Shown piece by piece: positions 6,585-26,987 of a stretch of DNA of 35,160 nucleotides (positions within the stretch are counted from its first letter, which is position 1; each line of letters starts with the position of its first letter). The notes below the pieces were generated by a model. That model did not search any database and had not been told where the DNA came from. It saw only the letters and a program-made list of their open reading frames with translations. Source of the DNA: Gemmatimonadota bacterium (GTDB lineage: Bacteria; Gemmatimonadota; Gemmatimonadetes; Gemmatimonadales; GWC2-71-9); contig QHTZ01000096.1 in NCBI GenBank assembly GCA_003221005.1, positions 1 through 35,160 of the forward strand, given 5' to 3'. Position numbers and translations under genes: made by a program.

Positions 6585-7370
6585 CTACTTCCCGGCCGCT
6601 GCCTCGGGGCGAAACACGAGGTCGGCGCCCATGAAGAAGTCTTGCCAGATCAGCGTGTTCAAGCCGAGAGCCAAGTAATGGAGTTTCGGAATAAGTTCAA
6701 GCTGCAGGTCAGCCGCCGGGATGCGCCACTTCGCGAGCACGCGCATCCCGCCTGCCTCGGGGAACGCCTTCACTGCGGCGGTCGTCGGCTGCTGCACCCC
6801 GCGCACCGTGAGGGTACCCACCGCGCTGCAAAAGAGCGTGTCCACCTGCCTGATTAGGCCCACGAGGCTGTCCAGCGTGAAGCGGATGTCCGGGAACCGC
6901 GCTGTCTCCAAGGCCTGGTGCATCATGACGTCGCGCATCGCCTCGCCCGTGACCAGCGCGTCGGCTCTCACCGTCACCTGCCCGCGGGCGCCCCGCCACT
7001 TCACCGTGTCGGGCAGGAGGACGTGACCTGCCACCGCTTCGCTGCACACCGCGCCGACCCGATACCGCGGGTAGAGTGGGACGTGCACGGTGTCGGGGGT
7101 GTTCGCGTACCCGGACTTCGGAGGGGGCGGTCGGATGTTGAACCCCGAGCTTCGACCCTCCCCGGGGTACCACGTGGGCTCCTCAGGGCACGTGGTGGCC
7201 CAGAGGTGGTTGAGGTGTGGGGACACCTGCCACCAGGCGAGACTGGCTTTCGGATCCACAGTCCAGGCGATCTGCGCCTGCGCATCGGCTAGTGCGATGG
7301 TAATGCCCACGAGGACAGCGGCAAGACTGGGCGGCAGCGGCCTCTGGAGCCAGGGCGAAACGCGCGTCAA
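6585..7370 (-). CDS. Secreted YceI-like (lipid/polyisoprenoid-binding barrel) protein
   Basis: TTG start with GGAG upstream; signal peptide ...LADAQAQ; WTVDPKAS N-terminus and LVTGEAMRD...LETARFPDIRFT...GTLTVRGV are YceI-type motifs. Confidence 0.72.
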   Translation of the reverse strand: MTRVSPWLQRPLPPSLAAVLVGITIALADAQAQIAWTVDPKASLAWWQVSPHLNHLWATTCPEEPTWYPGEGRSSGFNIRPPPPKSGYANTPDTVHVPLYPRYRVGAVCSEAVAGHVLLPDTVKWRGARGQVTVRADALVTGEAMRDVMMHQALETARFPDIRFTLDSLVGLIRQVDTLFCSAVGTLTVRGVQQPTTAAVKAFPEAGGMRVLAKWRIPAADLQLELIPKLHYLALGLNTLIWQDFFMGADLVFRPEAAAGK

Positions 7371-14151: not shown

Positions 14152-14242
14152 GGAGAGGTGGCCGAGTGGCTGAAGGCGGCGGTTTGCTAAACCGTTATAG
14201 GGCCTAATAGCCTTATCGGGGGTTCGAATCCCCCCCTCTCCG
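14152..14242 (+). tRNA. tRNA-Ser(GCT)
   Basis: Acceptor GGAGAGG/CCTCTCC, anticodon arm GCGGT-TTGCTAA-ACCGT, long variable arm, GGTTCGAATCC T arm, discriminator G; CCA not encoded. Confidence 0.97.
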
Positions 14243-14246: not shown

Positions 14247-14324
14247 CAACGACAAATGACCAATGCAGAATGTCCAATGATGAATTTCGAAATTGGATGT
14301 TGGACATTCGACATTGGACATTTG
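14247..14324. repeat. Heptamer tandem-repeat hairpin A (nAATGTC / GACATTn)
   Basis: caacgac aaatgac caatgca gaatgtc caatgat gaatttc | gaaattg gatgttg gacattc gacattg gacattt; dyad centre at 14288/14289. Confidence 0.9.
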
Positions 14325-14337
14325 CCTTCTCCCTTCC

Positions 14338-15627
14338 ATGCCTGACACCACCCGCGTTCGTTTCGCCCCCTCCCCGACGGGCTACCTCCACGTCGGGGGC
14401 GCGCGCACCGCGCTGTTCAACTGGCTCTACGCCCGTCACGTCGGCGGCACGTTCCTGCTCCGCATCGAAGACACCGACAAAGCCCGCTCGACAGACGAGC
14501 ACACCAAGGTGATCCTCGACGGCCTAACGTGGCTAGGACTCGACTGGGACGAGCCGCCGGTCTTCCAGGGCGCCCGGGTCACGCGCCACCAGGAGGTCGC
14601 CGACAAGCTGCTCGCCGAGGGCAAGGCCTACCTCGACGCAGGAACCATCCGCCTGCGCGTCCCGGCTGGGGAGATCGCCTGGGACGACGCGGTGCACGGC
14701 CGCATCAGCTTCCAGGGCGAAGACATCAAGGACTTCGTGATCCTGCGCTCCGATCGCTCGCCGCTCTACAACTTCGCAGTCGTCGTGGACGACATCGACA
14801 TGCGGATCACCCACGTCCTGCGCGGCGATGATCATATCTCCAACACGCCGAAGCAGATCGCCGTCTACCGCGCCGTCGGCGCCGCGCTTCCCGTGTTCGG
14901 CCATGTCCCGATGATCGCCGGCCCCGACGGCAAGAAGCTCTCCAAGCGCCACGGGGCTACGGCGGTCGGCGACTACCAGCACCTCGGCATCCTCCCCGCC
15001 GCGATGCGCAACTTCTTGGCGCTGCTCGGCTGGAGCCCGGGCGGCGACCGCGAGATCATGACGCTCGACGAGATGGTTCACCTGTTCTCGCTCGAGGGGA
15101 TCCAGAAGAAGAGCGCCATCTTCGACATGACGAAGCTCGAATGGATGAACGGGCAATATCTGTCTGCGAGCTCCGCGGACGAGCTCTACCCGCTCATCGC
15201 GCCGCCGCTCGAGAAGCTGGGAGTGAACGGCAAGCGCGACGCGGTCCTCAAGGCGATCACGGCGGTGAAGACGCGCTCGCGCACGACGCTCGACGTGGCA
15301 CGGCAGGTTGCGGCGCGGCTCGATCCCAAGCACGTCGCGCTCGACGAGAAGGCGCGGCGGGAGATCGCGCAGGACCCGGCGGGCTACAAGGCGTCCCTCG
15401 AAGCGAGCGTCGCCGCGCTGCGCGGCGCCGAATGGACGCCCGCCGCGCTGGAGCGGCAGCTACGCGAGCTCGCCGCCGAGCGCGGCGTCCCGCCCGGCAA
15501 GGTGTTCCAGCCGATTCGCATCGCGCTGACCGGCGGCACCGTCTCCGAGCCGGTCAACGAGCTGTTGTATGTAGTGGGGAAAGAAGCCGCTCTAGGGCGT
15601 TTGGAAGCAGCTGTTCGTGCGTCGTAG
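14338..15627 (+). CDS. gltX: Glutamate--tRNA ligase
   Basis: RVRFAPSPTGYLHVGG (HIGH), LRIEDTD, LRGDDHISNT, KKLSKR (KMSKS), C-terminal anticodon-binding helices with PIRIALTG. Start placed at ATG 14338. Confidence 0.96.
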   Translation: MPDTTRVRFAPSPTGYLHVGGARTALFNWLYARHVGGTFLLRIEDTDKARSTDEHTKVILDGLTWLGLDWDEPPVFQGARVTRHQEVADKLLAEGKAYLDAGTIRLRVPAGEIAWDDAVHGRISFQGEDIKDFVILRSDRSPLYNFAVVVDDIDMRITHVLRGDDHISNTPKQIAVYRAVGAALPVFGHVPMIAGPDGKKLSKRHGATAVGDYQHLGILPAAMRNFLALLGWSPGGDREIMTLDEMVHLFSLEGIQKKSAIFDMTKLEWMNGQYLSASSADELYPLIAPPLEKLGVNGKRDAVLKAITAVKTRSRTTLDVARQVAARLDPKHVALDEKARREIAQDPAGYKASLEASVAALRGAEWTPAALERQLRELAAERGVPPGKVFQPIRIALTGGTVSEPVNELLYVVGKEAALGRLEAAVRAS

Positions 15628-15642
15628 CGTCGTGGCGTCGTG
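15619..15642. repeat. Three copies of octamer GCGTCGTR across the gltX stop codon
   Basis: GCGTCGTA GCGTCGTG GCGTCGTG. Confidence 0.7.
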
Positions 15643-15648
15643 CAACGG

Positions 15649-16497
15649 CTACGGCACCGCGCGCACCGTATCCTTCGCCCCCGTCGAATCCCCCCGCGCC
15701 CGCCGCTCCGCATCGCGATCCGCCTGCTTGCGCTCGCGGATCTCGCGCACGTACTGCCGGAACTCTCGCAGCGTCTCGGTTCGCCGCGCCGCCTGGAGGA
15801 TGTCCTCGCGCATGTCTGAGATCTGCCGCGCCCGCAGCGACGCGTCGAAGTTCCCTTGAGGCAGCATGCTCCCGAGCAACGCGAGCACCGGCGCCGGGAT
15901 CTTGACCCCGGCCACGTAGATTCCCGACGAGTCGATCCCGAACTTCTTCCCCGTCACATCGGCGGTCCACGACGGCAGCCGGTGCTCCCGCTGCTCGAGG
16001 TCGATCATCTGGTTGAGCGTGTCAACCATCGCGCGCAGCCGGCCCACGACCACCGAGTCCCGCGGGGCGCTGTCCGGCGACCTGTTGTAGAGCACGTCTG
16101 CGACTTCGCTGGGGAGGGCGGGCCGCGGCGCAGGCCAGACACGAGAATCTGCGAGCCGCGGCCCGAGCACACCGGGCGCAGCAGCGCCCGGGCCCACCAC
16201 GAGCGTGGTGTCCAGCTTCCCGACCGGTGCCGGCGCGGGCTCAGCGGCGGGCGTCGCGGCGACGGGCACCGGGCGACCGAGCCCCCCACTCGGCCCCCGC
16301 CCGGGCTCCGTGCCGCCAAGCGGCGGCAGCGCGGGCAACCCGGCGAGCGGCGGAGGGGTCAGGTTGATGAACGTGATCCGCGGCACCACCCGCCACGACA
16401 CGGTGAAGATCAGCAGGAGAGCGGCGACGTGCAGCGCCGCGCTTGCGATCCAGCTGGCGCGGGTCTTGGGAAGCGGAGCCTTACGGAATTGGAACAA
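15649..16497 (-). CDS. Hypothetical membrane-anchored protein with TonB-like anchor and Pro-rich linker
   Basis: TTG start after GAGGTG; SAALHVAALLL TM (SxxxH, as in TonB/TolA anchors); Pro/Gly-rich spacer; charged helical C-terminus. Confidence 0.65.
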   Translation of the reverse strand: MFQFRKAPLPKTRASWIASAALHVAALLLIFTVSWRVVPRITFINLTPPPLAGLPALPPLGGTEPGRGPSGGLGRPVPVAATPAAEPAPAPVGKLDTTLVVGPGAAAPGVLGPRLADSRVWPAPRPALPSEVADVLYNRSPDSAPRDSVVVGRLRAMVDTLNQMIDLEQREHRLPSWTADVTGKKFGIDSSGIYVAGVKIPAPVLALLGSMLPQGNFDASLRARQISDMREDILQAARRTETLREFRQYVREIRERKQADRDAERRARGDSTGAKDTVRAVP

Positions 16498-16556
16498 CGG
16501 TCACCTCGGTGAACATCTGTCACTGATACGCGCAAGCACGCCCGGCCGCTAGTGCG

Positions 16557-19088
16557 CTATGGCCCCGTCCCGCTCCCCACCACGATCCCCTGTTCCGCGA
16601 AGAACTCCTCGCACCGCCGCCGCACGTCCTCCCAGCTCCCGATCACCGTAGTAGCGCGCGGCAGCCCTTCGAGGATCCGGGCGCCGTATCCCTTCGTGAC
16701 GGCGCGGCGGTCGAGCAGCACCACAGCACCCGTATCCGAGCGAGTGCGAATCAGGCGGCCGAAGCCTTGTTTCAGCTTGAGCGCCGCGAGCGGCACGAGG
16801 TAGTGGCTGAAGCCGTTCTGCCCGCGCTCCTCGAGCCGCTCGAGCCGTGCCGCCGTGAGCGGCTCGCTCGGGACTTTGAATGGGAGCTTGGCGAGGATCA
16901 GCACGCGCAGCGCCCGGCCCGGCACGTCAACACCCTCCCAGAAGGAATCGGTGCCGAGCAGGATCGCGGACCCCGAATCGCGGAACCGCCGCAGCAGCTG
17001 ATCGCGCTGCCCCTCTCCCTGTACGAGCAGCGGCCAGCGCGCCCCGAGTCGCCCCTGCCCCCGCACCGCGGCGGCCGTGCGGCGCAGGGCGCCGTGACTC
17101 GTGAACAGCACGAAGATGCCGCCGTCCGATACGCGGGCGAGGTCGAGCAGCACGCGTGCCACGGCGGCGTCGTGCCCCGCCTCGTCGTCACGCGGCTCGG
17201 GCAGGTCGGTCGGCACCCCGAACAAGCATTGCGCCGGGAAGTCGAACGGCGATGCGAGCACCTCCTGCACCGCCACCCGTGTGGGGGGAAGATCCAGTCC
17301 TAACCGCTCCGCGAGGAACGCGAAGTCGCCCGCGGCGGCGAGCGTGGCGCTCGTCAGCACGACGGTCCCCACGCGGTCGAATAGATTTTCCTTCAAGAGT
17401 AGCGCCAAATCGAGCGGCACCGAGGCGAGCGTCAGGTTCGCCCCCTTCCTGCCGCGCCGTTCGAGCCAGCGCACCGCCGGCGGCCCGCCGGGCGCCGGCT
17501 GCAGCGCGGCGGTGAGCCCCTGGGCAGCCGCGTCGAGCCGGCGGATGACTCCCCGCAGCTCGGCGATGAGCTGGACGGGGCGCTCCGCGGGATCCTCGAA
17601 CACCAGCCGGTCCGCGATCGTTTCGACGCCGTCCCGCAACCCTCTGAAGGCGACGAGCAGGTTTTCGAGCGCGGGGCCCAGTCCCTGGGACCAGACCGGG
17701 TCGCCGGCGAATGCGTCCGTGAGGCGCAGCACGGAGCCTGGCGCGGCTTCGGCGTCGAGCCGGTCGCCGAGCAGCAGGAAAAGAGTGTCGGCCGCGCGAC
17801 GGGCGGCGTCCAGCGCATCGAACAGGCCCTGGCGCACCAGGTCGCGGCTAGCGGCGGCGAGCAGGTCGTCGCGCCGGGCGAGCTCCGCCGCGATCGCCGG
17901 GAGCAGGCCCCGTCCGTTGCGCTCGAGCCGCGCGAGCAGCCGCTGCACGCCTACCGCGCTCACCTGAGCGCCGAGATGGGTCGCGGCGACGTCCTCCAGG
18001 TGATGCGCTTCGTCGAGCACCAGGCGGCGATAGGGCGGCAACACGGCGGCCTCGAGCCAGTTGTCGGACGCGATCCGCACCGCGAGATCGGACGCGAGCA
18101 AGTGGTGGTTCACCACGACGACGTCGGCCTCGGCGGCGCGGCGCCGCGCCTGGAACAGGAAGCAGCGCTCGAAGTGGGGACACTTGAGCCGCGTGCACAG
18201 GTCCGACTCCGCCGCGACGGAGTCCCATACCTCCGGCGACGGCTCGTCGGTCAGGTCCGCGAGGCTGCCATCGCCGGTGCGCGCCGCCCACGCGGCCAGG
18301 GCCTCGAGCTCGGCAGCGCGCGCGTCGTCGAACATCGAGTCCTGCCCGGCGCGCGCCTGCTCGAGCCGCGCCAGGCACAGATAGTTGCGCCACCCCTTGA
18401 GCAGCGCGAAGCTCGGCGTGTGGTCTCCGGTGGCGAGAGCGCGCGCCAGGATCGGCAGGTCCTTGCCGACGAGCTGCTCCTGCAGGTTGATCGTGTTTGT
18501 GGACACGACGGTGCGCTCGCCGTTCTCCCGCGCCCACACGAGCGCCGGCACGAGGTAGGCGAACGACTTGCCAACGCCGGTCCCCGCCTCGAGCAGTGCC
18601 ACTCCGCCGTCGTTGTACACGTCGGCCGTGTAGGCCGCCATATCGCGCTGGCTCGGCCGGTCCTCGAACGCGCCCAGCACGCGGGCGACGGGCCCGTGCT
18701 CGGCGAGCAGAGCGGCGACGTCCACGGGGTCGAGCCGCGCGGTCGCCCGCGCCCGCGGCACCTCGACCACCACGTAGCAGGCGGTGACGTCGTTGTCCAC
18801 GATCGCGAAGCCGACGCCGCCGTCGTGCAACCGGGCCGCGACGGCGAGGTCGGCGCCCGACGGCTCGAGCACGCCGCTCGGGTGGTTGTGCAGCAGGATC
18901 TCGCCGCGCTCGGCAATCCCCGGGAGTGCGAGCACCGCGTCCACGGTGCCCCGCGCCACGACGCGCGCCTCGACGATGCGTCTGTTCCCGTCGAGACGGC
19001 CCACGAACGAGACTTCGCGTCCCTGGGCGGCGCCGATTTCCGCGCGCAGCAGCAGCTGCACGGCCGGCGCCAGCCGCTCGACGCTCAC
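16557..19088 (-). CDS. dinG: DinG/YoaA-family Fe-S DEAH helicase with N-terminal RadC-like JAB/MPN domain
   Basis: GTG 19088 overlaps the upstream TGA; JAB motif REV...HNHPSGVLEPSGAD; RPSQ (Q motif), EAGTGVGKS, NYLC and CTRLKCPHFERC (Fe-S), LDEAHH, TSATL, FWEGVD, KQGFGRLIR. Confidence 0.9.
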   Translation of the reverse strand: MSVERLAPAVQLLLRAEIGAAQGREVSFVGRLDGNRRIVEARVVARGTVDAVLALPGIAERGEILLHNHPSGVLEPSGADLAVAARLHDGGVGFAIVDNDVTACYVVVEVPRARATARLDPVDVAALLAEHGPVARVLGAFEDRPSQRDMAAYTADVYNDGGVALLEAGTGVGKSFAYLVPALVWARENGERTVVSTNTINLQEQLVGKDLPILARALATGDHTPSFALLKGWRNYLCLARLEQARAGQDSMFDDARAAELEALAAWAARTGDGSLADLTDEPSPEVWDSVAAESDLCTRLKCPHFERCFLFQARRRAAEADVVVVNHHLLASDLAVRIASDNWLEAAVLPPYRRLVLDEAHHLEDVAATHLGAQVSAVGVQRLLARLERNGRGLLPAIAAELARRDDLLAAASRDLVRQGLFDALDAARRAADTLFLLLGDRLDAEAAPGSVLRLTDAFAGDPVWSQGLGPALENLLVAFRGLRDGVETIADRLVFEDPAERPVQLIAELRGVIRRLDAAAQGLTAALQPAPGGPPAVRWLERRGRKGANLTLASVPLDLALLLKENLFDRVGTVVLTSATLAAAGDFAFLAERLGLDLPPTRVAVQEVLASPFDFPAQCLFGVPTDLPEPRDDEAGHDAAVARVLLDLARVSDGGIFVLFTSHGALRRTAAAVRGQGRLGARWPLLVQGEGQRDQLLRRFRDSGSAILLGTDSFWEGVDVPGRALRVLILAKLPFKVPSEPLTAARLERLEERGQNGFSHYLVPLAALKLKQGFGRLIRTRSDTGAVVLLDRRAVTKGYGARILEGLPRATTVIGSWEDVRRRCEEFFAEQGIVVGSGTGP

Positions 19089-20386
19089 GTCTTCAGCTCG
19101 CGCTTCTTGGCCGCGGGGAAGAGCACGTTGTTGAGGATCAGGCGGTACCCGGGCGAGTGCGTGTGCAGCGACAGGTCGGTCGGGAGATCGCCGATCTGGT
19201 GCTGCGGGTCCTCGGGGTCGTGCCCGCCGAAGAAGGTCCACGTGCCCTTGCCCAGGTCGCCGTGGGTGTACTTGACCCATGGCGCTCCCTCCTCTTCACC
19301 GAGCACGGTGACGCTCGGCTTGAGCCGGTTGCGCATGAAGGAGGTCGTGAGGCCGTAGAAGTCCGGGATCACCTGGCGGTGGTTCTGGATCAGCATCGTC
19401 GGCACGGGATCGATCTTCGCGCTGAAGTTGAAGAGCGTGAACGCGCCGAGCGGCTGGCGCCGCGGGCCGGCGTTGACCTGGTGCCCGTCGATGTCGGAGA
19501 AGCTCGGGATCTGCGGGTTGGGCTCGATGTGCGCCCCGGTGAACGCGAGCGTCCGGCTCCAATCGAGCCTGGCGTCAGCGTCGGGGTCGATCGGCGTGCC
19601 ATCCGCGAAGCTCGCGGCGATGTCCGCGTGCTCGGCCGCGAGGGCGAGGTCGATCGTCTCGGTCGCGGTGCACATCGCGAACAGGAAGCCGCCGTTCCGG
19701 ACGTACTCGCGGATCGCGCGCGCCACGGCCTTCTTCAGGTCGGGCACCGAGCGGTACCGGAGCTGCCGCGCCGCGTCGGTGTTGAACCGGACCATCTCGG
19801 CCAGCCACGGCGCCCCCGCGTAGATGAGAAAGAACTTCGAGTATTGCCCTGTGAAGTCCTCGTGGTGCAGGTGCAGCCAGTCGTAGCTGCGGAGCGAGCC
19901 GGCCAGCACCTCGAAGTCCCACACTCGCTGGAACGGAATCCCGGCGTACTGGAGTGCCATCGTTACGGCGTCGTCCCACGGGGGCGCGTTGGGCGGCACG
20001 TACACGGCGACCTTCGGCGCCTTCTCCAGCGGCACGCTGTCCGCGTTCGTAGCCTCGATGTCGCCGCGGATGGCCGTCACGTCGGGGCCACCCACCGGCT
20101 CGACCCGGACCCCAGCGAGTGCCGCATCGCGCCGGATCGCGTCACCGTCGGCGACCAGGAACGAGCCGCCGCGGTAATTGAGGAGCCATTCCGCGGGGAG
20201 TCCCGCCTGGACGATCCGGTACACGACGCCATACGCCTTCAGATGGTCGGTCTGGGCGTCGTCCATGGGAATCAGGAGCGACGGACGGTCGGACAGTCGG
20301 ACAGTCGGACGGAACCCCATAAAGTCAGCCCCGACCGACAGTCCGACTGTCCGACCGACCGACACCAGGAACTCTCTCCGCTTCAC
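19085..20386 (-). CDS. Exported class-I glutamine-amidotransferase-like protein (family often mislabelled asparagine synthetase B)
   Basis: GTG 20386 overlaps the TPR gene stop; MKRREFL twin-Arg-like start; LIPMD..QTDHLKAYG, WLLNYRGGSF, YDWLHLHHEDFTGQY, GGFLFAMC (Cys elbow), GHDPED, GYRLILNNVLFPAA. Confidence 0.75.
   Translation of the reverse strand: MKRREFLVSVGRTVGLSVGADFMGFRPTVRLSDRPSLLIPMDDAQTDHLKAYGVVYRIVQAGLPAEWLLNYRGGSFLVADGDAIRRDAALAGVRVEPVGGPDVTAIRGDIEATNADSVPLEKAPKVAVYVPPNAPPWDDAVTMALQYAGIPFQRVWDFEVLAGSLRSYDWLHLHHEDFTGQYSKFFLIYAGAPWLAEMVRFNTDAARQLRYRSVPDLKKAVARAIREYVRNGGFLFAMCTATETIDLALAAEHADIAASFADGTPIDPDADARLDWSRTLAFTGAHIEPNPQIPSFSDIDGHQVNAGPRRQPLGAFTLFNFSAKIDPVPTMLIQNHRQVIPDFYGLTTSFMRNRLKPSVTVLGEEEGAPWVKYTHGDLGKGTWTFFGGHDPEDPQHQIGDLPTDLSLHTHSPGYRLILNNVLFPAAKKRELKT
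20280..20363. repeat. Octamer tandem-repeat hairpin B (GTCGGACA / TGTCCGAC) inside a coding N-terminus
   Basis: Left arm gacggacg gtcggaca gtcggaca gtcggacg; about 19-nt spacer; right arm cgaccgac agtccgac tgtccgac cgaccgac. Confidence 0.92.
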
Positions 20387-22143
20387 GACTTGGGAATCGC
20401 TCCTCGGGCGCGCTCTAGCTCGCGCCGCGCTTGGGGCACGACGGCGCTCTCGGGATAGGTGAGGATGAGGTGTTCGAGGTGCTGCGTAGCGGCGCTGGTC
20501 TCGCCCTGCCGCAGCAGCATCCGGGCCCACGCGAGCTCCGCCGCCGGCGCCGCCGCACCTGTGCCGCCTATCCGGATTACTTCGTCGAATAGCGCCGCCG
20601 CGGTCCGCTCGCCGTCGCCGCCCAGACCAGCTGCGACACGGCCCGCCAGCAGCAGCACGTCGGGGCGGCCGTATTCGGGCGTCAGCCGGTCCGCAACCCG
20701 CCGCAGGGTCGCGAGCGCACCCGTCGAGTCTCCGCGCGCGAGCGCCAACAGAGCGCTGCCAAGCGCCGGCAGGCGGTCCTCGGGGATCCGCTGCATCAGC
20801 GCGACCATCGCCATGCGCTCGGTCGCGTCCCGCCGGTCTCCGGCGTACGGGCCCGCGGCGCGAAACAACGCGCGCGCCGCCTGGAGGTCGCCGCGGTACA
20901 GCGCGATCCACCCGCGCACCGCGCTCGCCTCGACGCTCGAGTCCGCCCCCAGGGCCGAGTCAGCCCGCGCCAGGTCGCCGCGGCGGATGCGCGCGCGTGC
21001 CAGCGCTAGGCCCACGGCCGTGCGGTCGTCGTTCAACAGCTGGTTGCGCGCGCGCTCCAGCTGGGCCGCGGCGGAGTCCAACTGGCCCGCCTGGATCAGG
21101 GCGCGAATCAACGTGGCTTGAGCGAGCCGCTGCGCGTCGGGCGCGGCCCTAGGGTCGGCGGCCACGAGCGCGAGCTCCGCCTGCGCGGCCGCAACGTCTC
21201 CCGCCTCGAGGAACGCCCGCGCCGCATCCGCGCGCATTCGCACCGCGAGCTCGGGCGGCACCCGACGCGCGAGCTCGCGGAGGGCAAGCCCGCGCACGCG
21301 CCAGCCGGCGCGGGTGCGCTGTCCCATCGCCCAATCGGCGAAGCTGCGCAGTGCGTACGCCGCATCCACCGAGCGTCCGCTCACCGTCGGCTCGAAGACG
21401 GCCCAGGCACGCTGCGGGTCACCCCACGACAGGAGCAGCGCCGCCCCGAGCTGGCGGGCGGCCGGGGCGTCGGACGCGCCCGTCAAGACCTGGATGACAC
21501 CCTCGCGCCGGTCGACGGGAGCGTCGACAAGCTGCCCCACCGCCGTCGAGAGCTGGGCGGGAACGACCGCCAGCGCAGTGGCCCATTCCCGGGCCGCGCC
21601 TTCCCACTCGCCCATGCGACGGCGCACCTCGGCAAGCTCAACCGCCAAGGCCATCGCGTCTCCGAGCGCTTGCCGGCCGGCGAGCAGCACGTCCCGCGCG
21701 GCGGCGTTCGCCCCCGCCTCCTCGAGCGCCAGGGCCCATTCGCGATAAGGACCGGGGTCACGTGGCTGGGCGCGCGCCCACTGGCGCGCGGCGCTCCGCG
21801 CGCTGTCCGGCTGGCTGAGTGCGACATAGAGACGGAGCAGCAGGCCCCGAAACTCGGCGTTCTCCGGCTCGAGCTGCGACGCGTGTTGTGCGAGCGGCAG
21901 GACCTCTCGCAATCGGCCGAGCTGGGGCAGCACACGCTCGAGTCCGAGCAGCGCGGCGAGGTCCGTGGGATGGGCCCGCGCGGTCGCGAGATAGAAGTCG
22001 GCTGCCTGGTCGAGCCGGCCCGCGCGTTCGAGCTCGAACCCCGGACCGATGATCGCCTGCGCCGCCGCGGCGGCCGCGACGACGAGCGCCAGCCCGGCGG
22101 CGAGGCCGGCGGCTCTACCGCGAAGCTGGCGCGGAGGGCGCAT
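20383..22143 (-). CDS. Secreted tetratricopeptide-repeat protein
   Basis: Signal peptide; repeated Ala/Leu-rich helical units; C-terminal LEHLILTYPESAVVPQARRELE (BamD/YfiO-like TPR ending). Confidence 0.8.
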   Translation of the reverse strand: MRPPRQLRGRAAGLAAGLALVVAAAAAAQAIIGPGFELERAGRLDQAADFYLATARAHPTDLAALLGLERVLPQLGRLREVLPLAQHASQLEPENAEFRGLLLRLYVALSQPDSARSAARQWARAQPRDPGPYREWALALEEAGANAAARDVLLAGRQALGDAMALAVELAEVRRRMGEWEGAAREWATALAVVPAQLSTAVGQLVDAPVDRREGVIQVLTGASDAPAARQLGAALLLSWGDPQRAWAVFEPTVSGRSVDAAYALRSFADWAMGQRTRAGWRVRGLALRELARRVPPELAVRMRADAARAFLEAGDVAAAQAELALVAADPRAAPDAQRLAQATLIRALIQAGQLDSAAAQLERARNQLLNDDRTAVGLALARARIRRGDLARADSALGADSSVEASAVRGWIALYRGDLQAARALFRAAGPYAGDRRDATERMAMVALMQRIPEDRLPALGSALLALARGDSTGALATLRRVADRLTPEYGRPDVLLLAGRVAAGLGGDGERTAAALFDEVIRIGGTGAAAPAAELAWARMLLRQGETSAATQHLEHLILTYPESAVVPQARRELERARGAIPKS

Positions 22144-25100
22144 TGAGGCGTCGGAAGTATTCCAGAACCAGCCGGCGCTGCTCCGGGGTCAGGTCCCTGA
22201 GCTCGTCCCACCGGGGATAGCGGACGCGGGCACCCGCGCCCGTCGCGCCCGGCGCGAGCAGTGCGGGCACGTGGACGCTGTCGGAGCTCGCGGGACGACT
22301 AGCGCGCTCCCGCTGCTCGTCCGGCTCGGGGCCGGTGAGCGTGCGGCCCGCATCCAGGAGGCGTCGGTAGAGCCGCTCCTGGCGCTGGATCGTCTGGGCA
22401 TCGAGCCGGCCCGCCTCGAGCTGCCGCGCGAGGTCGCGCGCTTCCTGCGCCAGGGTCCCCGCCGCCTGACTCGCGCCCTCGCCGTGGAGCCGCTCGAGGT
22501 CCTCAGCGAGCGCGCGCTGCTGGGCCGCGAGCGCGCGCAGCTGGTCCATCACCTCGCCGCCGGTGGCGGCGGCGAACGAGAGTAACCCCTGCACCTCTCC
22601 GTTCAGTCCCCCCTGCTGTTGCGCCAGGTGGGCGAGCTGCTCCATCATTTCGGCGAAACCGCTGCCCGACTGCCCGCCCTGCACGTCATTGCGGCTCTTC
22701 GCCAGGGCGTAGGCCGTCGCGTTGAGCGCGTCCACCGACTCCTCCGCCAGGGCTGCGGCGGCTTCGACGTTGGGGTTCGCCTCCTCGAGCCGCTCCCGCG
22801 CCGCGCGCATCTGGCGTTGAGCAAACGCGAGCGCGCGCTCGAGCTGGGGGGAGACGAGCGCGTGCCTGCCCGCCGCAGCGCGGACCTGGCGCTCGACCGC
22901 GTCCGCGCCCTCCTCCAGGGAAGCCTGCTGGGACCGCGTGGCGGGCCCCGCCTCGCTCCGGTGCAGCGCCTCAGCGATCTGCCGCTGGCGCTCCGCGAGC
23001 GCCACCGTCTCCGAGAGGGCGCGGTCGAGCGCATCGAGCGTCTCCCGGCGCCACGCTTGCGCCAGCGAGTCACGCCGGGCGCGCAGCGCGTCCGGGATCT
23101 CTGCCAGGGCGGATTCCGCGGCGGCGCCGGCGCTCGCTGCAGCCGTGGCATCCCGCTCGCTGGCGGCGCCGGCGGCCCGACGCATGGCGCCGTGCGCGCG
23201 CGCAGCGGCTGCGCGGGGCGCCGCGAGCGGCGTGCCGCCGTCGGGCGGCGGCGCCGCCCGCGCCAGGTCGCTCGCAGCCTGCGCGATGCCGCGCGCGAGT
23301 GAATCGGTGCGCGCCGCCAGCGCGCGCTCGCGCTCCGTCGCCGAGCTGTCGACGCGCCTGGCGTCCGCCTCGTTCCACTCGGCCTGGCGCCGGCGCAGGT
23401 CTTCGGCATCTGCGGCGAGCGACTGGAGCGCGCCCTCCACCGCGGCGCGGCGGAACAGCTCCTGGCTGCGCGCCAGCGTCTCCTTGAGTTGCCGCTGCGC
23501 CTCGGCGAGGTTCGCCAGCGCCTGGCGCATCGCCTCCGGGTCGAGCTTCGCGAGCGCCTCCTGCAGCTCGCGCAGCCGCTGCTCGAGCTCAGGCGTGAGC
23601 GCGCGCTGCAGCAGCTGCTGGACTTCCGCGAGGCGCGCCTGGAACGCGGTGTCGGTCAGCCCCGCCTGCTGCGCGGCGCGCGCCACCTCGGCGACCGCCT
23701 GCGCGAGCTGCTGGGCGCGCTGCTCGACCTCTGCCTGTTGCTGCGCGATCGCCGCTGCGCGCTCGCTGGCTTCGAAGGGCAGTGTCCCGGCCTGTGCGCC
23801 CGCCGGCCGCCGGTCCGGCGTCGCCGCGTCGCGAGAACGCTCTTGCGCCAGATCGCTCGTCCGCTGCAGCACCGCCCCCGCTGCGTCGGTGAGCGAGTCC
23901 GCCGTCGCGCCGATCTCCCGCGCCGCCGCCCGCGTGGCGGCGCGCAGCTCCTCCAGGCTCAGCAGCCGCAGCGCCAGCTCGACGCTGCTGCCCTCGTGCG
24001 GCCGGGGGGCGTTGTCCCACGCGTCCACGCGGAGCCGCAGCGTGTCTCCAGGCAGCAGCCCCCGCCGCTCGGCGTCGAGCTCACCCTGAAGCAGCGCGCG
24101 ATCCCCGGCACCGCTCACGTCGAGCGCCTGACGCACTGGCTCGGCAACCTTGCCCGTTCGACTCACTCGCCAGCTCACCAACTCGACCCGGGAGACGCCG
24201 TGATCGTCGCGCACATCGATCACGACCGGTTGCCGCAGCGAGAGTGGCAGGGTCGTGTCGCGCCCCGGGACGGGGATGAACACCACTGGCGCGGAATCAG
24301 GCACCACCCGGAGGTGGAGCTCGGGCGCATCGCCCTCGAGGGGGCTGCCGTCCCCCGCCGCCACCTCGAGCCGCCAGACGCCGGAGGCGCCGGGCACGAA
24401 TCCGCCGCTGAACGCGGTGCCGCGCACGCCGAGCCGCGCGGCGTTGCGGCCCCCTGGGGACTGCACCCAGGCGGCGTGCACGACCGGCACGCTCGCGGCT
24501 CCGTTCGTAAGCACGGCGGTGCCCGCAGGCAGCGGGATGGTGTCCGGCCCCGCCACGATCTGCTCGTCGGCGCGCTGCAGGTAGGCGGGGTAGCGGGCGG
24601 TGAGCTCGAGGTCGGCAAGGAACGCGGGGAGCCTCACGACAACTGTGTGTTCGGCGCTGCGGCGGGTGCCGCTCGTCGCGCGCACATAGAGGTCCGTCTC
24701 GAGCGGACCCAGGCGGCGCATCCCGCGCCCCGACGTGTCCAAGGGGACCGGCAGCGGCCGCCACGGCTCCCCCGGCGCGCGCGTCCACAGCGTGGCACGA
24801 GTGGCGGCCGGGACTGCGATCGTGACCGTGACGCCCTCGCCCCGGCGCACTGTGTCGCGGTCGACCGCCAGCAGCACGGTTGCCCGCGCGTCCGCGAGCG
24901 TGCGCAGCGGATGCCAGAACGCGGCACGACCCCGCGCCGGCGACGCGACGACGAACAACGCGGCGCCCGCGGCCGCGGCGATCACGCCCGCCGCGACGCG
25001 ACGACGGGTCTCCCGCGCGAGCGAGCGATCCACGCGCGACGCGACGGCAGCGACCACGCGCGCTGCGCGCGCGTCGGCGAATGAGGCGAGCTCCGCGCTC

Positions 25101-25420
25101 GTCCCGCCCAGCCCAACGTCGACGGCCGCGAGCGCGCCGACCACGCTGCCGTCGCGCGCGCCCGCCGCGCCCTCCACGAGACGACCGAGCGTGTGCGGGT
25201 CCGCGCCCCGCGGAGCACGCCGCGCACCCCACGCCGCGAGGCCTGCGACAAGGGCGATCGCAAGCCACGCGGCGACGACCGCGAGCGGCCGCGGCGCGAG
25301 CCACAGCCCCAGCGCCGCTATCGCCAGGGCCAGCCCCGCCGCCGCGAGCACGAACGCGCTGATGCGCGCGCGGGTGTGCGCCAGGCCGAGCTGCCGCAGC
25401 CGGGCGCCCGTCTGGGTCAC
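22115..25420 (-). CDS. DUF4175-like membrane-anchored protein with beta-rich domains and long coiled coil
   Basis: N-terminal TM helices, ARYPAYL, VVPDSAPVV, DVRDDHGV, GLLPGD...AWDN motifs, long Q/E/A coiled coil, C-terminal RRLVLEYFRRL; GTGA coupling to DUF4159. Confidence 0.75.
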   Translation of the reverse strand: MTQTGARLRQLGLAHTRARISAFVLAAAGLALAIAALGLWLAPRPLAVVAAWLAIALVAGLAAWGARRAPRGADPHTLGRLVEGAAGARDGSVVGALAAVDVGLGGTSAELASFADARAARVVAAVASRVDRSLARETRRRVAAGVIAAAAGAALFVVASPARGRAAFWHPLRTLADARATVLLAVDRDTVRRGEGVTVTIAVPAATRATLWTRAPGEPWRPLPVPLDTSGRGMRRLGPLETDLYVRATSGTRRSAEHTVVVRLPAFLADLELTARYPAYLQRADEQIVAGPDTIPLPAGTAVLTNGAASVPVVHAAWVQSPGGRNAARLGVRGTAFSGGFVPGASGVWRLEVAAGDGSPLEGDAPELHLRVVPDSAPVVFIPVPGRDTTLPLSLRQPVVIDVRDDHGVSRVELVSWRVSRTGKVAEPVRQALDVSGAGDRALLQGELDAERRGLLPGDTLRLRVDAWDNAPRPHEGSSVELALRLLSLEELRAATRAAAREIGATADSLTDAAGAVLQRTSDLAQERSRDAATPDRRPAGAQAGTLPFEASERAAAIAQQQAEVEQRAQQLAQAVAEVARAAQQAGLTDTAFQARLAEVQQLLQRALTPELEQRLRELQEALAKLDPEAMRQALANLAEAQRQLKETLARSQELFRRAAVEGALQSLAADAEDLRRRQAEWNEADARRVDSSATERERALAARTDSLARGIAQAASDLARAAPPPDGGTPLAAPRAAAARAHGAMRRAAGAASERDATAAASAGAAAESALAEIPDALRARRDSLAQAWRRETLDALDRALSETVALAERQRQIAEALHRSEAGPATRSQQASLEEGADAVERQVRAAAGRHALVSPQLERALAFAQRQMRAARERLEEANPNVEAAAALAEESVDALNATAYALAKSRNDVQGGQSGSGFAEMMEQLAHLAQQQGGLNGEVQGLLSFAAATGGEVMDQLRALAAQQRALAEDLERLHGEGASQAAGTLAQEARDLARQLEAGRLDAQTIQRQERLYRRLLDAGRTLTGPEPDEQRERASRPASSDSVHVPALLAPGATGAGARVRYPRWDELRDLTPEQRRLVLEYFRRLNAPSAPASR

Positions 25421-26163
25421 CGGATCGAGCTCACGGCGTATGTGAATAGATTGACGCCCATCCGCAACGCGGCCTCGTGCAGCTCCGGGGGATCGTGGTG
25501 GACGTCGGGGTCCTCCCAGCCGTCACCGAGATCCGTCTGATAGGAATAGTAAACGACCAGCCGGTCCCCCAAAAAGATACCGAATCCTTGCGCGGGCAGC
25601 CCGTCGTGCTCGTGAATCTTGGGGAGGCCTTTGGGGAAGTCGTAGACCACATGGTAGATGGGATGCGCCAGCGGGACCTCCACCAGGGGATGGTCGGGGA
25701 AGACGCGCTGGATCTCGCGTCGGAACGACTGGTCCATGCCGTAGTCGTCGTCGGCGTGCAGGAAGCCTCCCTGCTCGAGATAGCGGCGCAGAATCTTCAC
25801 GTCTTCATCGGAGAAGCGCACGTTGCCGTGTCCCCGCATGAAGAGGTACGGGATGTCCCACAGCTCGGCACTCGCAAGGGTCACCACCCGCTCCCGCTCG
25901 GCGACGGGGAGCGACGTGCGCTGGCGAATGGCGGCGAGGAGGTTGGGGAGGGAGGAGGGACCCGCATACCAGTCGCCGCCGCCGTCGTAATGCAACCTTC
26001 CGATGGTGAGTGATGCTTCGTTCGGTCGGGATGCGGGATGCGAGATGCGGGATACGGGATGCACACCAAGCTCCACGCATCTCGCATCTCGCATCTCGCA
26101 TCCCGGTCTTACGTCGGCGCGCGCCAGCCACAATGTGACCGCGATGACCGCCAGGGGTCTCAT
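25417..26163 (-). CDS. DUF4159 domain protein
   Basis: ATG 26163 overlaps the rsmI TGA; RLHYDGGGDWY..PSSLPNL, PYLFMRGHG, YLEQGGFLHADDDYG, KIHEHDG, TDLGDGWED, ALRMGVNL. Confidence 0.87.
   Translation of the reverse strand: MRPLAVIAVTLWLARADVRPGCEMRDARCVELGVHPVSRISHPASRPNEASLTIGRLHYDGGGDWYAGPSSLPNLLAAIRQRTSLPVAERERVVTLASAELWDIPYLFMRGHGNVRFSDEDVKILRRYLEQGGFLHADDDYGMDQSFRREIQRVFPDHPLVEVPLAHPIYHVVYDFPKGLPKIHEHDGLPAQGFGIFLGDRLVVYYSYQTDLGDGWEDPDVHHDPPELHEAALRMGVNLFTYAVSSIR
26027..26105. repeat. Heptamer tandem-repeat hairpin C (GRGATGC / GCATCYC) inside a coding N-terminus
   Basis: gggatgc gggatgc gagatgc gggatac gggatgc, 14-nt loop, gcatctc gcatctc gcatctc gcatccc. Confidence 0.93.
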
Positions 26164-26987
26164 AAATCGTTCACGAGCCGATACGCCGTGTTTCTGGTAA
26201 TGCCCGTCTCCGCCGCCAGCCGGTCGGCGACGTCTTTGCGGGTCAATCCCTGGGCCAGGAGGGCGCGGGCCATGGCTTCGGGGTCGGGAGCGGGCTCCTC
26301 GCGCACTGCCCGTCCCGTCCCGGCCACGACGACGGTCACCTCGCCGCGGGGAGGAGCTTCCGCATAGTAACCCGCGAGATCGGTCAGGGTGCCGGCGCGC
26401 GTTTCCTCGAACACCTTGGTCAACTCCCGCGCGACCGCGGCGCGCCGCGCCCCGCCGCACGCCCCCGCCAGATCGGCGAGCAGCTCCGCGGTGCGGTTCG
26501 GCGCCTCGAACAGCACCACGGTCCACTCGCTCTTCGCGACCGTGTCGAGCAGGCGGCGCCGGTCGCCCCCCTTGCGCGGCGGGAACCCGAGGAAGAGATA
26601 GCGATCTGCGGGAAGCCCGGAGACCGCGAGCGCCGCCGCGACCGCCGTCGGTCCGGGAACCGTCACAACCGGGACGTCGCGCTCGCGAGCGGCGGCGACG
26701 AGCGCCGCGCCAGGATCGCTCACCGCCGGCGTGCCGGCGTCGGTCACAAGGGCCACGTCTTTGCCGGTACCGAGCAGATGGAGGATGCGCCGCAGGGCGG
26801 CGTCGCTCGAATGCGCGTGGAAGCTCATCAGCTCGGCGCGCGAGCCGACGTGAGCGAGCACGGTACGGGTGTGGCGGGTGTCCTCGGCCGCAACCGCGAT
26901 CACGCGGCAGAGCGTGGCGGCGGCGCGGGGCGACAGGTCGTCGAGGTTGCCGAGCGGCGTCGCGACGACGTACAGAGTGCCGGACAT
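26160..26987 (-). CDS. rsmI: 16S rRNA (cytidine1402-2'-O)-methyltransferase
   Basis: GTLYVVATPLGNLDDLSPRA, AAEDTRHT, VTDAGTPAVSDPG, FEAPNR, ARELTKVFEE, RGEVTVVV. Confidence 0.95.
   Translation of the reverse strand: MSGTLYVVATPLGNLDDLSPRAAATLCRVIAVAAEDTRHTRTVLAHVGSRAELMSFHAHSSDAALRRILHLLGTGKDVALVTDAGTPAVSDPGAALVAAARERDVPVVTVPGPTAVAAALAVSGLPADRYLFLGFPPRKGGDRRRLLDTVAKSEWTVVLFEAPNRTAELLADLAGACGGARRAAVARELTKVFEETRAGTLTDLAGYYAEAPPRGEVTVVVAGTGRAVREEPAPDPEAMARALLAQGLTRKDVADRLAAETGITRNTAYRLVNDL

What the first reader, a model, noticed from the sequence alone, without database searches (positions are those of the whole stretch)
14247..26105. Family of tandem-repeat hairpins (7/8-nt units, inverted arms) at gene 5' ends
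Seen: three 78-84 bp elements share one architecture, 4-6 tandem short units followed by 4-5 reverse-complement units, but have unrelated unit sequences (AATGTC-type 7-mer at 14247-14324, GTCGGACA 8-mer at 20280-20363, GGGATGC 7-mer at 26027-26105). All lie within about 60 nt of a start codon, and no transposase is in the window. Known: cyanobacterial STRR heptamers and REP/BIME hairpins exist, but REPs share sequence and are intergenic. From recollection, to be verified: similar repeat arms flank four-helix-bundle (IVP-family) and other small cargo genes. Inference: these are empty sites or non-autonomous members of a structure-defined mobile or RNA-processing system, tolerated in CDS only where the peptide is dispensable.
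Basis: partly seen in the sequence, partly recalled or inferred. Interest (0 to 1): 0.85.

Follow-up and report, generated by a model that had tools for sequence, protein, structure and literature searches.

The report
Tandem-repeat hairpins tied to IVP genes
The three hairpins belong to about a hundred look-alike DNA palindromes scattered through this soil bacterium's genome, some of them read as protein, and the same repeat arms bracket every copy of a small gene first known from insertions in ribosomal RNA.

Summary
All three elements are real. They belong to about 105 copies in the 2.79 Mb Gemmatimonadales genome, against 0, 2 and 0 in shuffles. Each has an arm of about 30 nt made of about four tandem 7-, 8- or 10-mers, a short centre, then the inverse arm. 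The G-rich arm is 5' in 91 of 104.

All 6 PF05635/TIGR02436 (23S-rRNA IVS protein, S23p, Avd-like) genes of the genome sit between such arms. So do 62 of 80 relatives in other Gemmatimonadales. Four of the six share arm families with gene-less hairpins at 91-96% identity.

Orthologous sites show filled, hairpin-only and cleanly absent states. Several sites keep a hairpin but switch unit family between species.

Element 1 is intergenic, between tRNA-Ser and gltX. Elements 2 and 3 are translated in frame, within a twin-arginine-like signal and after a signal peptide. Other copies lie in inter-domain linkers of PheT, DnaX, LigD, NadE, SucA and inside KsgA.

Best reading: gene-less members of an S23p-type IVS-like selfish palindrome family that persist only where harmless. 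How they are copied is not shown.

Tandem heptamer stems of an S23p IVS (Coxiella) and convergent heptamer arrays (Xanthomonas) are in print. The genome-wide link and the in-frame copies were not found in print.

The parts
14253..14324 (.). Element 1: hairpin of AATGTCC-type heptamers with a TTCGAA-centred middle. Intergenic. Same family as the arms beside the IVP gene on contig C39.
   Evidence: 84% identity to G000:C39:1501-1577..
14152..14242 (+). tRNA-Ser(gct), ending 10 nt before element 1.
14338..15627 (+). gltX (glutamyl-tRNA synthetase). Its ATG lies 14 nt after element 1.
20280..20363 (.). Element 2: hairpin of GTCGGACA-type octamers. It is translated on the minus strand as part of the N-terminal signal-like region.
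   Evidence: in frame in 7 of 7 genomes.
19085..20386 (-). Gene with no Pfam match. It starts at a GTG overlapping the upstream stop. The N-terminus has the form V-K-R-R-E-F-L, then the element-encoded stretch, then L-L-I-P-M-D-D.
20383..22143 (-). Upstream TPR-repeat gene. Its stop overlaps the start of the element-2 gene.
26027..26105 (.). Element 3: hairpin of CGGGATG-type heptamers. It is translated on the minus strand between a signal peptide and the DUF4159 domain.
   Evidence: in frame in 3 of 3 genomes scored.
25417..26163 (-). DUF4159 gene. The ATG at 26163 overlaps the stop of the upstream gene.
26160..26987 (-). Upstream TP_methylase-family gene.

Best explanation
The three hairpins are gene-less members of a family of palindromic 'foldback' elements. 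Each arm is a short tandem array, about four units and about 30 nt, whatever the unit length. The G-rich strand always runs 5' to 3' towards the centre.

The gene-carrying form holds a PF05635/TIGR02436 protein (IVP, S23p; a pentameric four-helix-bundle protein related to Avd). That is the kind of element known as the ORF-bearing intervening sequence of 23S rRNA.

Shown here:
- the family and its polarity;
- the link to the IVP gene;
- shared arm families between gene-bearing and gene-less copies;
- gain or loss at orthologous sites;
- long persistence of occupied sites with turnover of the unit family;
- in-frame residence in linkers and signal regions.

Inferred:
- The elements are selfish or near-neutral DNA that is copied or rewritten at the DNA level. 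The route looks like repair or recombination rather than cut-and-paste: there is no target duplication, junctions show microhomology, arms can bracket native DNA, and one element has arms of two families.
- IVP oligomers may bind the repeated units.
- Selection leaves copies only where they do little harm: in minimal spacers just behind stop codons, and in frame where a floppy peptide is tolerated.
- Once transcribed, the stems are likely RNase III substrates, as shown for the Coxiella IVS. That was not tested here.
For: **Family and chance**
- 105 elements against 0, 2 and 0 in shuffles. The first scan gave 69 against 0 in each of 5 shuffles.

**Uniform build**
- Median arm 30.5 nt: 7-mers 30.0, 8-mers 29.5, 10-mers 38.5.
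- 5' arm G over C in 91 of 104.
- Neighbouring complementary arrays in G-then-C order 62, in C-then-G order 1.
- 26 of 26 elements in relatives' DNA are G-first.

**IVP link**
- 6 of 6 IVP genes are bracketed by arms, whichever strand the gene is on.
- 62 of 80 Gemmatimonadales loci and 12 of 20 in families f2 and f3 also have arms.
- This IVP subfamily has units of 8 nt or more in 62 of 62 loci, against 43 of 104 for all elements of G000.
- Arms of 4 of 6 IVP elements match gene-less copies at 91-96% over 25-35 nt.
- Variant units are shared between IVP arms and gene-less copies.

**States at orthologous sites**
- C66 site: filled in G000, G002, G005 and G009; absent in G006, where 9 nt join the flanks; a two-family hairpin in G001.
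- C118 site: filled in G000 and G003; clean absence in G001.
- tRNA-Ser/gltX spacer: hairpins of different units in 6 genomes, a shorter degenerate one in a seventh (G008), a plain hairpin in 1, nothing in 2. Two further loci carry inserts of about 1 kb that were not examined.

**In-frame copies**
- KsgA, two SucA linkers, LigD, PheT, DnaX and NadE linkers, elements 2 and 3.

**DNA level rather than RNA level**
- No excess of G-U-compatible mismatches on the sense strand: 43 against 32, p = 0.38.
- An element's own arms are no more alike than arms of other family members in the tight families.

**Literature**
- The Coxiella 23S IVS carries an S23p ORF behind tandem GACAGAT heptamers. Their number varies between strains, and RNase III cuts at the first repeat. 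S23p of X. campestris is a homopentamer (PMC4990558, passages read).
- Xanthomonas has 70-75 convergent pairs of GGGAATC arrays, mostly of four units, mostly intergenic and nearer the upstream ORF (PMC4692102, section 10 and passages read).
Against: - No new insertion was seen. All relatives are only 70-80% identical in flanking genes, so gain and loss cannot be told apart or dated.
- Many sites are occupied in all congeners. That fits old inherited structures as well as mobile ones.
- IVP count and hairpin density do not track strictly:
  - G014: 0 IVP genes found, yet 4 elements in 370 kb.
  - G025: 8 IVP matches and 0 elements in 400 kb, though 5 of its 6 IVP loci examined lack arms.
  - G004: 0 IVP genes and 0 elements in 159 kb.
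- About 9 of about 15 multi-member unit families in G000 have no IVP gene in the 94%-complete assembly.
- In KsgA the arms bracket a native 72-nt coding segment. A simple insertion of one hairpin does not explain that.
- IVP has no known catalytic activity.
- No reverse transcriptase was found.
- The two Y1 transposase genes carry other repeats.
Confidence: 0.55

Rival explanations
1. Host-serving RNA hairpins. The stems would be kept by selection as RNase III processing sites, mRNA stabilisers or terminators between cistrons. The tandem repeats would only be the way long stems grow.
For: - Position and structure are conserved while sequence changes at several orthologous sites.
- 32 of 48 co-directional intergenic copies start 10 nt or less after a stop.
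- One relative has a plain GC hairpin at the tRNA-Ser/gltX site.
- RNase III cuts the heptamer stem of the Coxiella IVS (PMC4990558).
- Among co-directional copies, the sense strand folds better in 31 against 17.
Against: - 27 of 104 lie inside CDS, including essential genes, where cleavage or termination would hurt.
- Overall there is no strand bias of stability: 43 against 32, p = 0.38.
- A downstream T-run is present in only 7 of 75.
- Close relatives lack the element at some sites, with 9-26 nt spacers.
- G004 has none in 159 kb.
- Genome-wide families with near-identical arms are not expected from local selection for a stem.
Confidence: 0.15
2. A by-product of mutation with no element identity. 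Replication slippage would amplify a native heptamer and template switching would copy it into an inverted partner. IVP genes would merely be cassettes that land in, or are trapped by, such palindromes.
For: - In KsgA of G003 the left array starts exactly at a native CAGGTGC that G004 also has.
- The right array of the G005 type resembles native GCGTTTCC.
- The arms bracket native coding DNA.
- Arm copy number differs between close relatives: about 10 against 4-5 units in G006.
- Neighbours within 2 kb share a unit in 5 of 19 pairs, against 1.65 expected, p = 0.023.
Against: - Units fall into families of 4-20 members with 90-98% identical arms at unlinked loci.
- Arms have a fixed length of about 30 nt for 7- and 8-mers.
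- The G-first polarity is universal: 91 of 104, and 62 against 1. Slippage does not predict either.
- An element's own two arms are not more alike than arms of other members. That argues against frequent copying from arm to arm.
- IVP subfamily correlates with unit type.
Confidence: 0.18
3. G-quadruplex-forming regulatory simple-sequence repeats, as proposed for the Xanthomonas GGGAATC arrays.
For: - Many units carry G3 tracts spaced 4 nt apart (CGGGATG, CGGGAAA, GGGACGG).
- The Xanthomonas arrays fold into G4 in vitro (PMC4692102, abstract and passages).
Against: - Several families have no G-runs: AATGTCC (element 1), AGACGTC, CGCTACGT.
- 11 of 104 have a C-rich or neutral-to-negative 5' arm.
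- The constant feature is the inverted pair, which competes with G4 folding.
Confidence: 0.05

Closest known systems
ORF-bearing intervening sequences of 23S rRNA (S23p/IVP type; Leptospira, Coxiella, Brucella)
   Same: - Same protein family between inverted flanks.
- In Coxiella the 5' flank is a run of tandem heptamers whose number varies between strains, and RNase III cuts at the first repeat (PMC4990558).
- These IVS are regarded as selfish elements.
   Different: - None of the six copies here lies inside 23S rRNA. One lies just after 5S rRNA.
- Most copies (about 100) have no ORF.
- Many unit families coexist.
- Copies sit between and inside protein genes.
Xanthomonas GGGAATC heptamer arrays (Rehm et al. 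2015, PMC4692102)
   Same: - Mostly four units per array.
- 70-75 convergent (G-strand inward) pairs per genome.
- About 90% intergenic and closer to the upstream ORF, with 7-11% intragenic.
- Positions are conserved between species while lengths differ.
- X. campestris also has a PF05635 protein (2GSC).
   Different: - One unit only, against about 15 multi-member families here.
- Described as G4-forming repeats.
- The words 'four helix', 'intervening' and 'S23' do not occur in that paper's main text. Its supplements could not be read.
REPIN-RAYT systems
   Same: - Hairpin doublets form within-genome populations.
- A single-copy gene is flanked by its own repeat family.
- Inheritance is mostly vertical and long-lived (abstracts in the listing).
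   Different: - The associated gene is not a Y1 transposase.
- The two Y1_Tnp genes here carry other, non-tandem repeats.
- Here the arms are tandem arrays.
Rickettsia palindromic elements (RPE; recalled, no paper read)
   Same: Palindromic selfish DNA that sits in frame inside protein genes and adds a peptide segment.
   Different: RPEs share one sequence family and are not tandem arrays. No associated gene is known for them.
Cyanobacterial STRR heptamers (recalled; mentioned in listings)
   Same: Tandem heptamers of several unit types. They are reported inside a helix of RNase P RNA (recalled).
   Different: They are mostly long single arrays. In Nostoc only a few are paired (PMC4692102).
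Foldback/Galileo transposons of Drosophila (titles and abstracts in the listing)
   Same: Terminal inverted repeats are built of tandem sub-repeats around a variable or missing centre. In Galileo the sub-repeats are multiple protein-binding sites.
   Different: They are eukaryotic, kilobase-sized and moved by a transposase.

Membership tests
S23p/IVP-type IVS element | PF05635/TIGR02436 gene between inverted flanks | tested here: met
   6 of 6 genes in G000, 62 of 80 and 12 of 20. The three window elements themselves carry no gene.
S23p/IVP-type IVS element | Flanks made of tandem heptamers | tested here: met
   Coxiella precedent: PMC4990558.
S23p/IVP-type IVS element | Sits in a helix of 23S rRNA | tested here: not met
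   The six IVP genes lie between protein genes or after 5S rRNA. The 23S gene of this assembly is only partly present.
S23p/IVP-type IVS element | Excised from RNA by RNase III | not testable with these tools
   No RNA holder was listed.
Xanthomonas-type convergent heptamer arrays | About four tandem units, convergent pair with G-strands pointing inward | tested here: met
Xanthomonas-type convergent heptamer arrays | Unit GGGAATC / G3 tracts able to form G4 | tested here: not met
   Other units are used, and several lack G-runs.
REPIN-RAYT | Y1 (RAYT) transposase flanked by the repeat | tested here: not met
   The two PF01797 genes have different flanking repeats, and no tandem-repeat hairpin lies at their flanks; the nearest is about 3.7 kb away on C66.
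Diversity-generating retroelement (Avd + RT) | Reverse transcriptase next to the Avd-like gene | tested here: not met
   No PF00078 match in the 94%-complete genome. One IVP scores 25 bits on the Avd model, whose cut-off is 80.
Intrinsic terminators | GC hairpin followed by a U-run | tested here: not met
   T-run in 7 of 75 oriented elements.
Known RNA families (Rfam 15) | Match at gathering score | tested here: not met
   Only the two tRNAs in the window. Hairpins gave sub-threshold miRNA-precursor look-alikes only.
Classical transposon/MITE | Target-site duplication at filled versus empty sites | tested here: not met
   No duplication at the two IVP sites compared with their empty alleles.

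The most novel reading that the evidence does not exclude
S23p/IVP proteins, pentameric Avd-like rings, are the sequence readers of an unrecognised copy-and-rewrite system for DNA palindromes that needs no transposase and no reverse transcriptase. Each IVP subfamily keeps its own family of tandem-unit arms, much as a RAYT keeps its REPINs. The arms are laid down as G-rich repeats growing from 3' ends towards a break or hairpin, a telomere-healing-like polarity. That would explain the G-first rule, arms that bracket native DNA, the two-family hybrid, and family switching at fixed sites. As a side effect the system writes new linkers and signal-peptide segments into proteins.
Probability: 0.15. 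Interest if true: 0.9.

Novelty: new variant of a known kind. Interest (0 to 1): 0.72.

Why it matters
The function of the widespread S23p/IVP/Avd-like family outside diversity-generating retroelements is unknown. So is the origin of rRNA intervening sequences, of Xanthomonas heptamer arrays and of cyanobacterial STRRs.

This genome ties them together. The same tandem-unit arms occur with and without the gene, in many families, at sites that can be compared across species.

It also gives a second clear case, after Rickettsia RPEs, of palindromic repeat DNA living in frame inside essential genes. Here it supplies linker and signal-region peptides.

That makes several questions testable. Does IVP bind its own arrays? 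Are the stems cut by RNase III? How are the arms written?

Tried and rejected

- RNA evidence: no RNA holder was listed.
- Laying Logan contigs of 4 soil runs:
  - Contigs break at the elements.
  - Depth jumps about 5-20 fold in the two bins that hold elements 2 and 3.
  - Many loose ends sit at the arm borders. These are arm look-alikes from other loci or organisms.
  - The single-contig joints at 20302/20341 and 26062/26027 are too weak to count as length variants.

**Analyses that did not separate the hypotheses**
- Single-linkage clustering of units merged 48 heptamer elements into one family and made the neighbour test blind. It was redone pairwise.
- Test for translated N-terminal extensions among co-directional intergenic copies: the gene frame was open in 8, the +1 frame in 15 and the +2 frame in 4 of 48. 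There is no excess. My crude gene calls misplace some starts, element 3 included.
- IVP count against hairpin density in 5 sampled relatives shows no strict relation.

**Searches with negative results**
- Cargo other than IVP: arm pairs 200-1500 nt apart held only IVP genes or were two neighbouring elements.
- Long loops gave no IVP remnants by tblastn.
- No target duplications.
- No reverse transcriptase.
- RAYT genes are not associated with these hairpins.
- No Rfam family.

**Literature**
- Eight searches found no paper that links PF05635/S23p genes to genome-wide tandem-repeat hairpins, and none on such repeats in Gemmatimonadota.
- Supplements are closed. The repeat tables of PMC4692102 might show whether S23p genes lie between Xanthomonas pairs.
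- Integron attC sites were considered as a structure-defined analogue. This was not pursued and no integrase search was run.


Full report
**1. The observation**

The three elements are in the sequence as described.
- Element 1 pairs 14253-14291 with 14286-14324, 79% complementary.
- Element 2 pairs 20282-20312 with 20331-20361, 90%.
- Element 3 pairs 26027-26056 with 26076-26105, 90%.

Tandem Repeats Finder reports the arrays with periods 7, 8 and 7.

The window is contig C3 of a 2.79 Mb, 141-contig, 69% G+C assembly that is 94% complete. Relatives found through a protein of the same genome are all Gemmatimonadales MAGs.

**2. They are part of a large family**

- A scan for a tandem array of period 5-10 followed within 200 nt by its reverse complement found 69 cases among 1055 arrays. 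It found 0 among 295-314 arrays in each of five dinucleotide shuffles.
- A more sensitive two-way scan gave 105 after filtering, against 0, 2 and 0 in three shuffles.
- 104 non-redundant elements were measured:

| Measure | Value |
|---|---|
| Arm length, median | 30.5 nt (IQR 27-32) |
| Arm length, 7-mers (61 elements) | 30.0 nt |
| Arm length, 8-mers (33 elements) | 29.5 nt |
| Arm length, 10-mers (8 elements) | 38.5 nt |
| Loop, median | 23.5 nt |

- Units fall into 21 groups, about 15 of them with several members. The largest are AATGCGG-like (20), GGGGACG-like (12), GTCGGAC-like (11) and CGGGAAA-like (10).
- The 5' arm has more G than C in 91 elements, fewer in 11 and equal in 2.
- This polarity is the same on both strands of a palindrome, so it is a property of the element and not of the strand read.
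- Among neighbouring complementary arrays, the order G-rich then C-rich occurs 62 times and the reverse once.
- All 26 elements found in DNA fetched from relatives are G-first.

**3. Link to IVP genes**

- The genome has six PF05635 (23S_rRNA_IVP) genes, all above the cut-off. All six also hit TIGR02436 'four helix bundle protein'.
- Each is bracketed by a G-rich tandem array on the left and its complement on the right, whichever strand the gene is on.
- Two of the six have degenerate arms (C52, C132).
- Of 80 loci of one IVP subfamily in other Gemmatimonadales, 62 have such arms.
- Of 20 IVP loci in two sister families, 12 do.
- That subfamily has units of 8-11 nt in 62 of 62 loci. Only 43 of 104 elements of G000 have units of 8 nt or more (Fisher p = 2e-17). 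Related loci are not independent, so the p-value overstates.
- Arms of four of the six IVP elements match arms of gene-less copies elsewhere at 91-96% over 25-35 nt. That is better than the fit between their own two arms, 79-90%.
- Variant units recur:
  - The IVP arm of G002 reads AATGCGG AATTCGG AATGCGG AACGCGG. The AATTCGG variant is in 6 of about 12 gene-less AATGCGG copies of G000.
  - The GGAAGTC GGAACGC GGAAC end of the G000 C66 IVP arm is identical in the gene-less copy at C6:27022.
- Element 1 of the window is 84% identical over 77 nt to a copy beside the C39 IVP gene, and shares its TTCGAA-centred middle.

**4. Orthologous sites**

Relatives are 70-80% identical in flanking genes.

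*Sites that keep a hairpin but change its unit family*
- tRNA-Ser/gltX spacer:
  - G000 has an AATGTCC hairpin.
  - G009 and G002 have GGTGTCG, G001 has AGGTGTC, G003 has AGGTGNT and G018 has GAGCGGT.
  - G008 has a shorter, degenerate GGTGCTG-type hairpin.
  - G012 has a plain GC hairpin.
  - G016 and G005 have spacers of 13 and 18 nt with nothing.
  - G015 and G014 carry inserts of about 1 kb that were not examined.
- Element 2 site: octamer hairpins of GGGCGGTC type in G001 and G009, degenerate ones in G003, G005 and G006, and a single C-rich octamer array in G020.
- Element 3 site:
  - G001, G009, G005 and G006 have octamer hairpins of three other types, and G002 has a more complex one.
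  - G003 has no clear array.
  - In G006 the left arm has about 10 units against 4-5 on the right.
- A further site, C118:60142, has three different families in G000, G003 and G001.
- So occupied sites are old, while the unit family at a site turns over.

*Sites with filled, empty and absent states*
- The C66 IVP site is filled in G000, G002, G005 and G009.
- It is empty in G006, where 9 nt join the flanks. It is without arrays in G003 and G004.
- In G001 it holds a gene-less element whose left arm is GGGACG-type and whose right arm is the complement of GGCGGTCA-type.
- The C118 IVP site is filled in G000 and G003 and cleanly empty in G001.
- No target duplication is visible at either site.
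- The rex-downstream copy (C66:23445) is present in G000, partly present in G002, a two-unit remnant in G001, and absent in G003, G005, G006 and G011.

*A site where the family is kept*
- At C66:2623 the AATGCGG family is kept in G000, G002, G009 and G001, with the same AATTCGG-type variant in three of them.
- There the arms are more alike (29 of 31 between G000 and G002, read) than the flanks, which are about 76% identical.

**5. Copies inside genes**

- By my own rough gene calls, the 104 elements split as follows:

| Location | Elements |
|---|---|
| Inside a CDS | 27 |
| Between co-directional genes | 48 |
| Between convergent genes | 11 |
| Between divergent genes | 8 |
| At contig ends | 10 |

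- For comparison, the genome's spacers are 1863 co-directional, 256 convergent and 250 divergent.
- Pfam on 10 of the 27 in-CDS genes (positions) puts the element between domains of one known architecture in four cases:
  - LigD: residues 525-556, between the ligase and Prim-Pol domains.
  - PheT: residues 196-218, between the tRNA_bind and B3_4 domains.
  - DnaX: residues 377-419, between domain III and the tau C-terminal domain.
  - NadE: residues 295-329, between the hydrolase and synthase domains.
- FtsK carries one just before its alpha domain.
- Four of the other five are unclear: domains on one side only, no Pfam match, or a possible read-through. The fifth, C61, has domains on both sides but of two different proteins (see Noticed in passing).
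- SucA has two copies in its two variable linkers. Within each genome both linkers use the same unit family, and the family differs between genomes.
- In KsgA the two arms bracket a native 72-nt segment that all outgroups also have:
  - The arms are present in G000, G002, G009 and G005.
  - They are partial in G006.
  - G003 has another family (CAGGTGT).
  - They are absent in G004 and in other genera.
  - Length differences are 21 or 42 nt, which keeps the frame.
  - In G003 the left array starts at a native CAGGTGC also present in G004.
- Element 2 is translated:
  - A GTG that overlaps the upstream stop opens a frame reading V-K/R-R-R-x-F. I recall this as the twin-arginine signal motif; no tool named it.
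  - The frame runs through the element to a conserved L-L-I-P-M-D-D in 7 of 7 genomes, despite different units and lengths.
- Element 3 lies between a signal peptide and the DUF4159 domain. The signal peptide starts at the ATG at 26163, which overlaps the upstream stop.
  - The frame is open in the 3 of 3 genomes that could be scored.
  - In four others my search found the domain but not the end of the upstream gene, so the start could not be placed.
- Among co-directional intergenic copies:
  - 32 of 48 start 10 nt or less after the stop.
  - 19 of 48 end 20 nt or less before the next called start.
  - Where both neighbours are within 60 nt (23 cases), the leftover spacer has a median of 16 nt.
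- So the copies fill minimal spacers just behind stop codons, as reported for Xanthomonas.

**6. DNA level or RNA level?**

- Folding both strands shows no preference for the transcribed strand: 43 against 32, Wilcoxon p = 0.38. G-U pairs number 165 against 152.
- Co-directional copies alone lean to the sense strand, 31 against 17.
- Only 7 of 75 have a T-run downstream.
- In the tight families an element's own arms are no more alike (0.88-0.93) than arms of different members (0.88-0.93 left against right, up to 0.98 left against left).
- So arms look drawn from a family pool rather than kept matched pair by pair.
- Neighbours within 2 kb share a unit in 5 of 19 pairs, against 1.65 expected (p = 0.023).

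**7. Candidate machinery**

- No reverse transcriptase was found.
- There are two Y1 transposase genes, each flanked by its own non-tandem repeats and not by these hairpins.
- The genome does encode LigD.
- The IVP profile matches two solved structures, 2GSC (XCC0516) and 2RLD, each with five chains. The Xanthomonas protein is described as a toroidal homopentamer (PMC4990558).
- IVP count, hairpins found and kilobases sampled:

| Genome | IVP count | Hairpins | kb sampled |
|---|---|---|---|
| G004 | 0 | 0 | 159 |
| G014 | 0 | 4 | 370 |
| G025 | 8 | 0 | 400 |
| G001 | 8 | 8 (one looks spurious) | 400 |
| G013 | 13 | 6 | 241 |
| G000 (same criteria) | 6 | 86 | 2793 |

- Five of the six G025 IVP loci examined have no arms.
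- The relation is suggestive and not strict.

**8. What is known**

- Warrier et al. 2016 (PMC4990558; abstract and passages read):
  - They describe the Coxiella 23S IVS as a selfish element with an S23p ORF.
  - The ORF is preceded by tandem GACAGAT heptamers whose number varies between strains.
  - RNase III cuts at the first repeat.
  - They cite the older idea that the ORF might serve mobility.
- Rehm et al. 2015 (PMC4692102; section 10 and passages read):
  - They describe 183-186 GGGAATC arrays per Xanthomonas genome, mostly of four units.
  - 70-75 are convergent pairs.
  - They read the arrays as G-quadruplex repeats.
  - The words 'four helix', 'intervening' and 'S23' are absent from the main text.
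- PF05635 is noted as Avd-like in PMC10053308 (passages read).
- Eight literature searches found nothing that joins these threads, and nothing on Gemmatimonadota.

**9. Verdict**

- The best-supported reading is that the three hairpins are gene-less members of an S23p/IVP-type, IVS-like palindromic element family. The family lives outside rRNA, persists for long periods, turns over its arm family, and survives only in harmless places, in-frame protein linkers and signal regions among them.
- How the arms are written is not shown. It may be IVP-guided, repair-like 3'-end extension, or slippage with template switching.

Noticed in passing
G000:C34:10895-11060: A second tRNA-Ser/gltX junction in the same assembly, 83-88% identical to the window's. 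It has only 9 nt between the tRNA and the ATG and no hairpin. It is either a paralogous copy or a co-binned relative.
   Followed up: partly
G000:C27:17500-18450 and G000:C66:6270-7010: Two Y1_Tnp (RAYT-like) genes, each flanked by its own REP-like repeats that are unlike the tandem hairpins. One REP-like GC hairpin copy also lies inside the next gene on C66, at about 6970-7010.
   Followed up: partly
L017 (G000:C39:1-1722): A short contig holds, in order: the 23S 3' end, 5S rRNA, a CCAATGT hairpin, an IVP gene, a lone arm and another hairpin. An IVP element sits at the tail of an rRNA operon.
   Followed up: partly
G000:C61:22137-24440: One open frame joins aspartokinase plus ACT domains to an M20 peptidase, with a hairpin element at residues 398-425 between them. 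It is either a gene fusion through the element or a read-through of two genes.
   Followed up: no
G000:C21:39529-39654: The DnaX copy lies at the domain III/IV boundary. In E. coli dnaX that is the region where a hairpin-stimulated frameshift makes the gamma subunit (recalled).
   Followed up: no
L161 (G001, orthologue of the C66 IVP site): A gene-less element whose left arm (GGGACG type) and right arm (complement of GGCGGTCA type) come from different families. It keeps the G-then-C order without being a palindrome.
   Followed up: partly
L045 (G006, orthologue of element 3): The left arm is expanded to about 10 octamer units against 4-5 on the right. This shows that arm copy number changes.
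   Followed up: no
L048 (G020, orthologue of element 2): A sister-family genome has a single C-rich octamer array, with no inverted partner, at the same place. It too is read in frame after the R-R-x-F motif.
   Followed up: no
window 24941-25046: A 48-nt tandem repeat (2.2 copies, 76% matches) inside the 1101-residue ORF 22115-25420, which has no Pfam match.
   Followed up: no
window 20223-20463 and 26007-26247: In four soil metagenome runs the summed contig depth is about 5-20 fold higher in the two bins holding elements 2 and 3. Many contigs match only an arm. Arm look-alikes are therefore common in those communities.
   Followed up: partly
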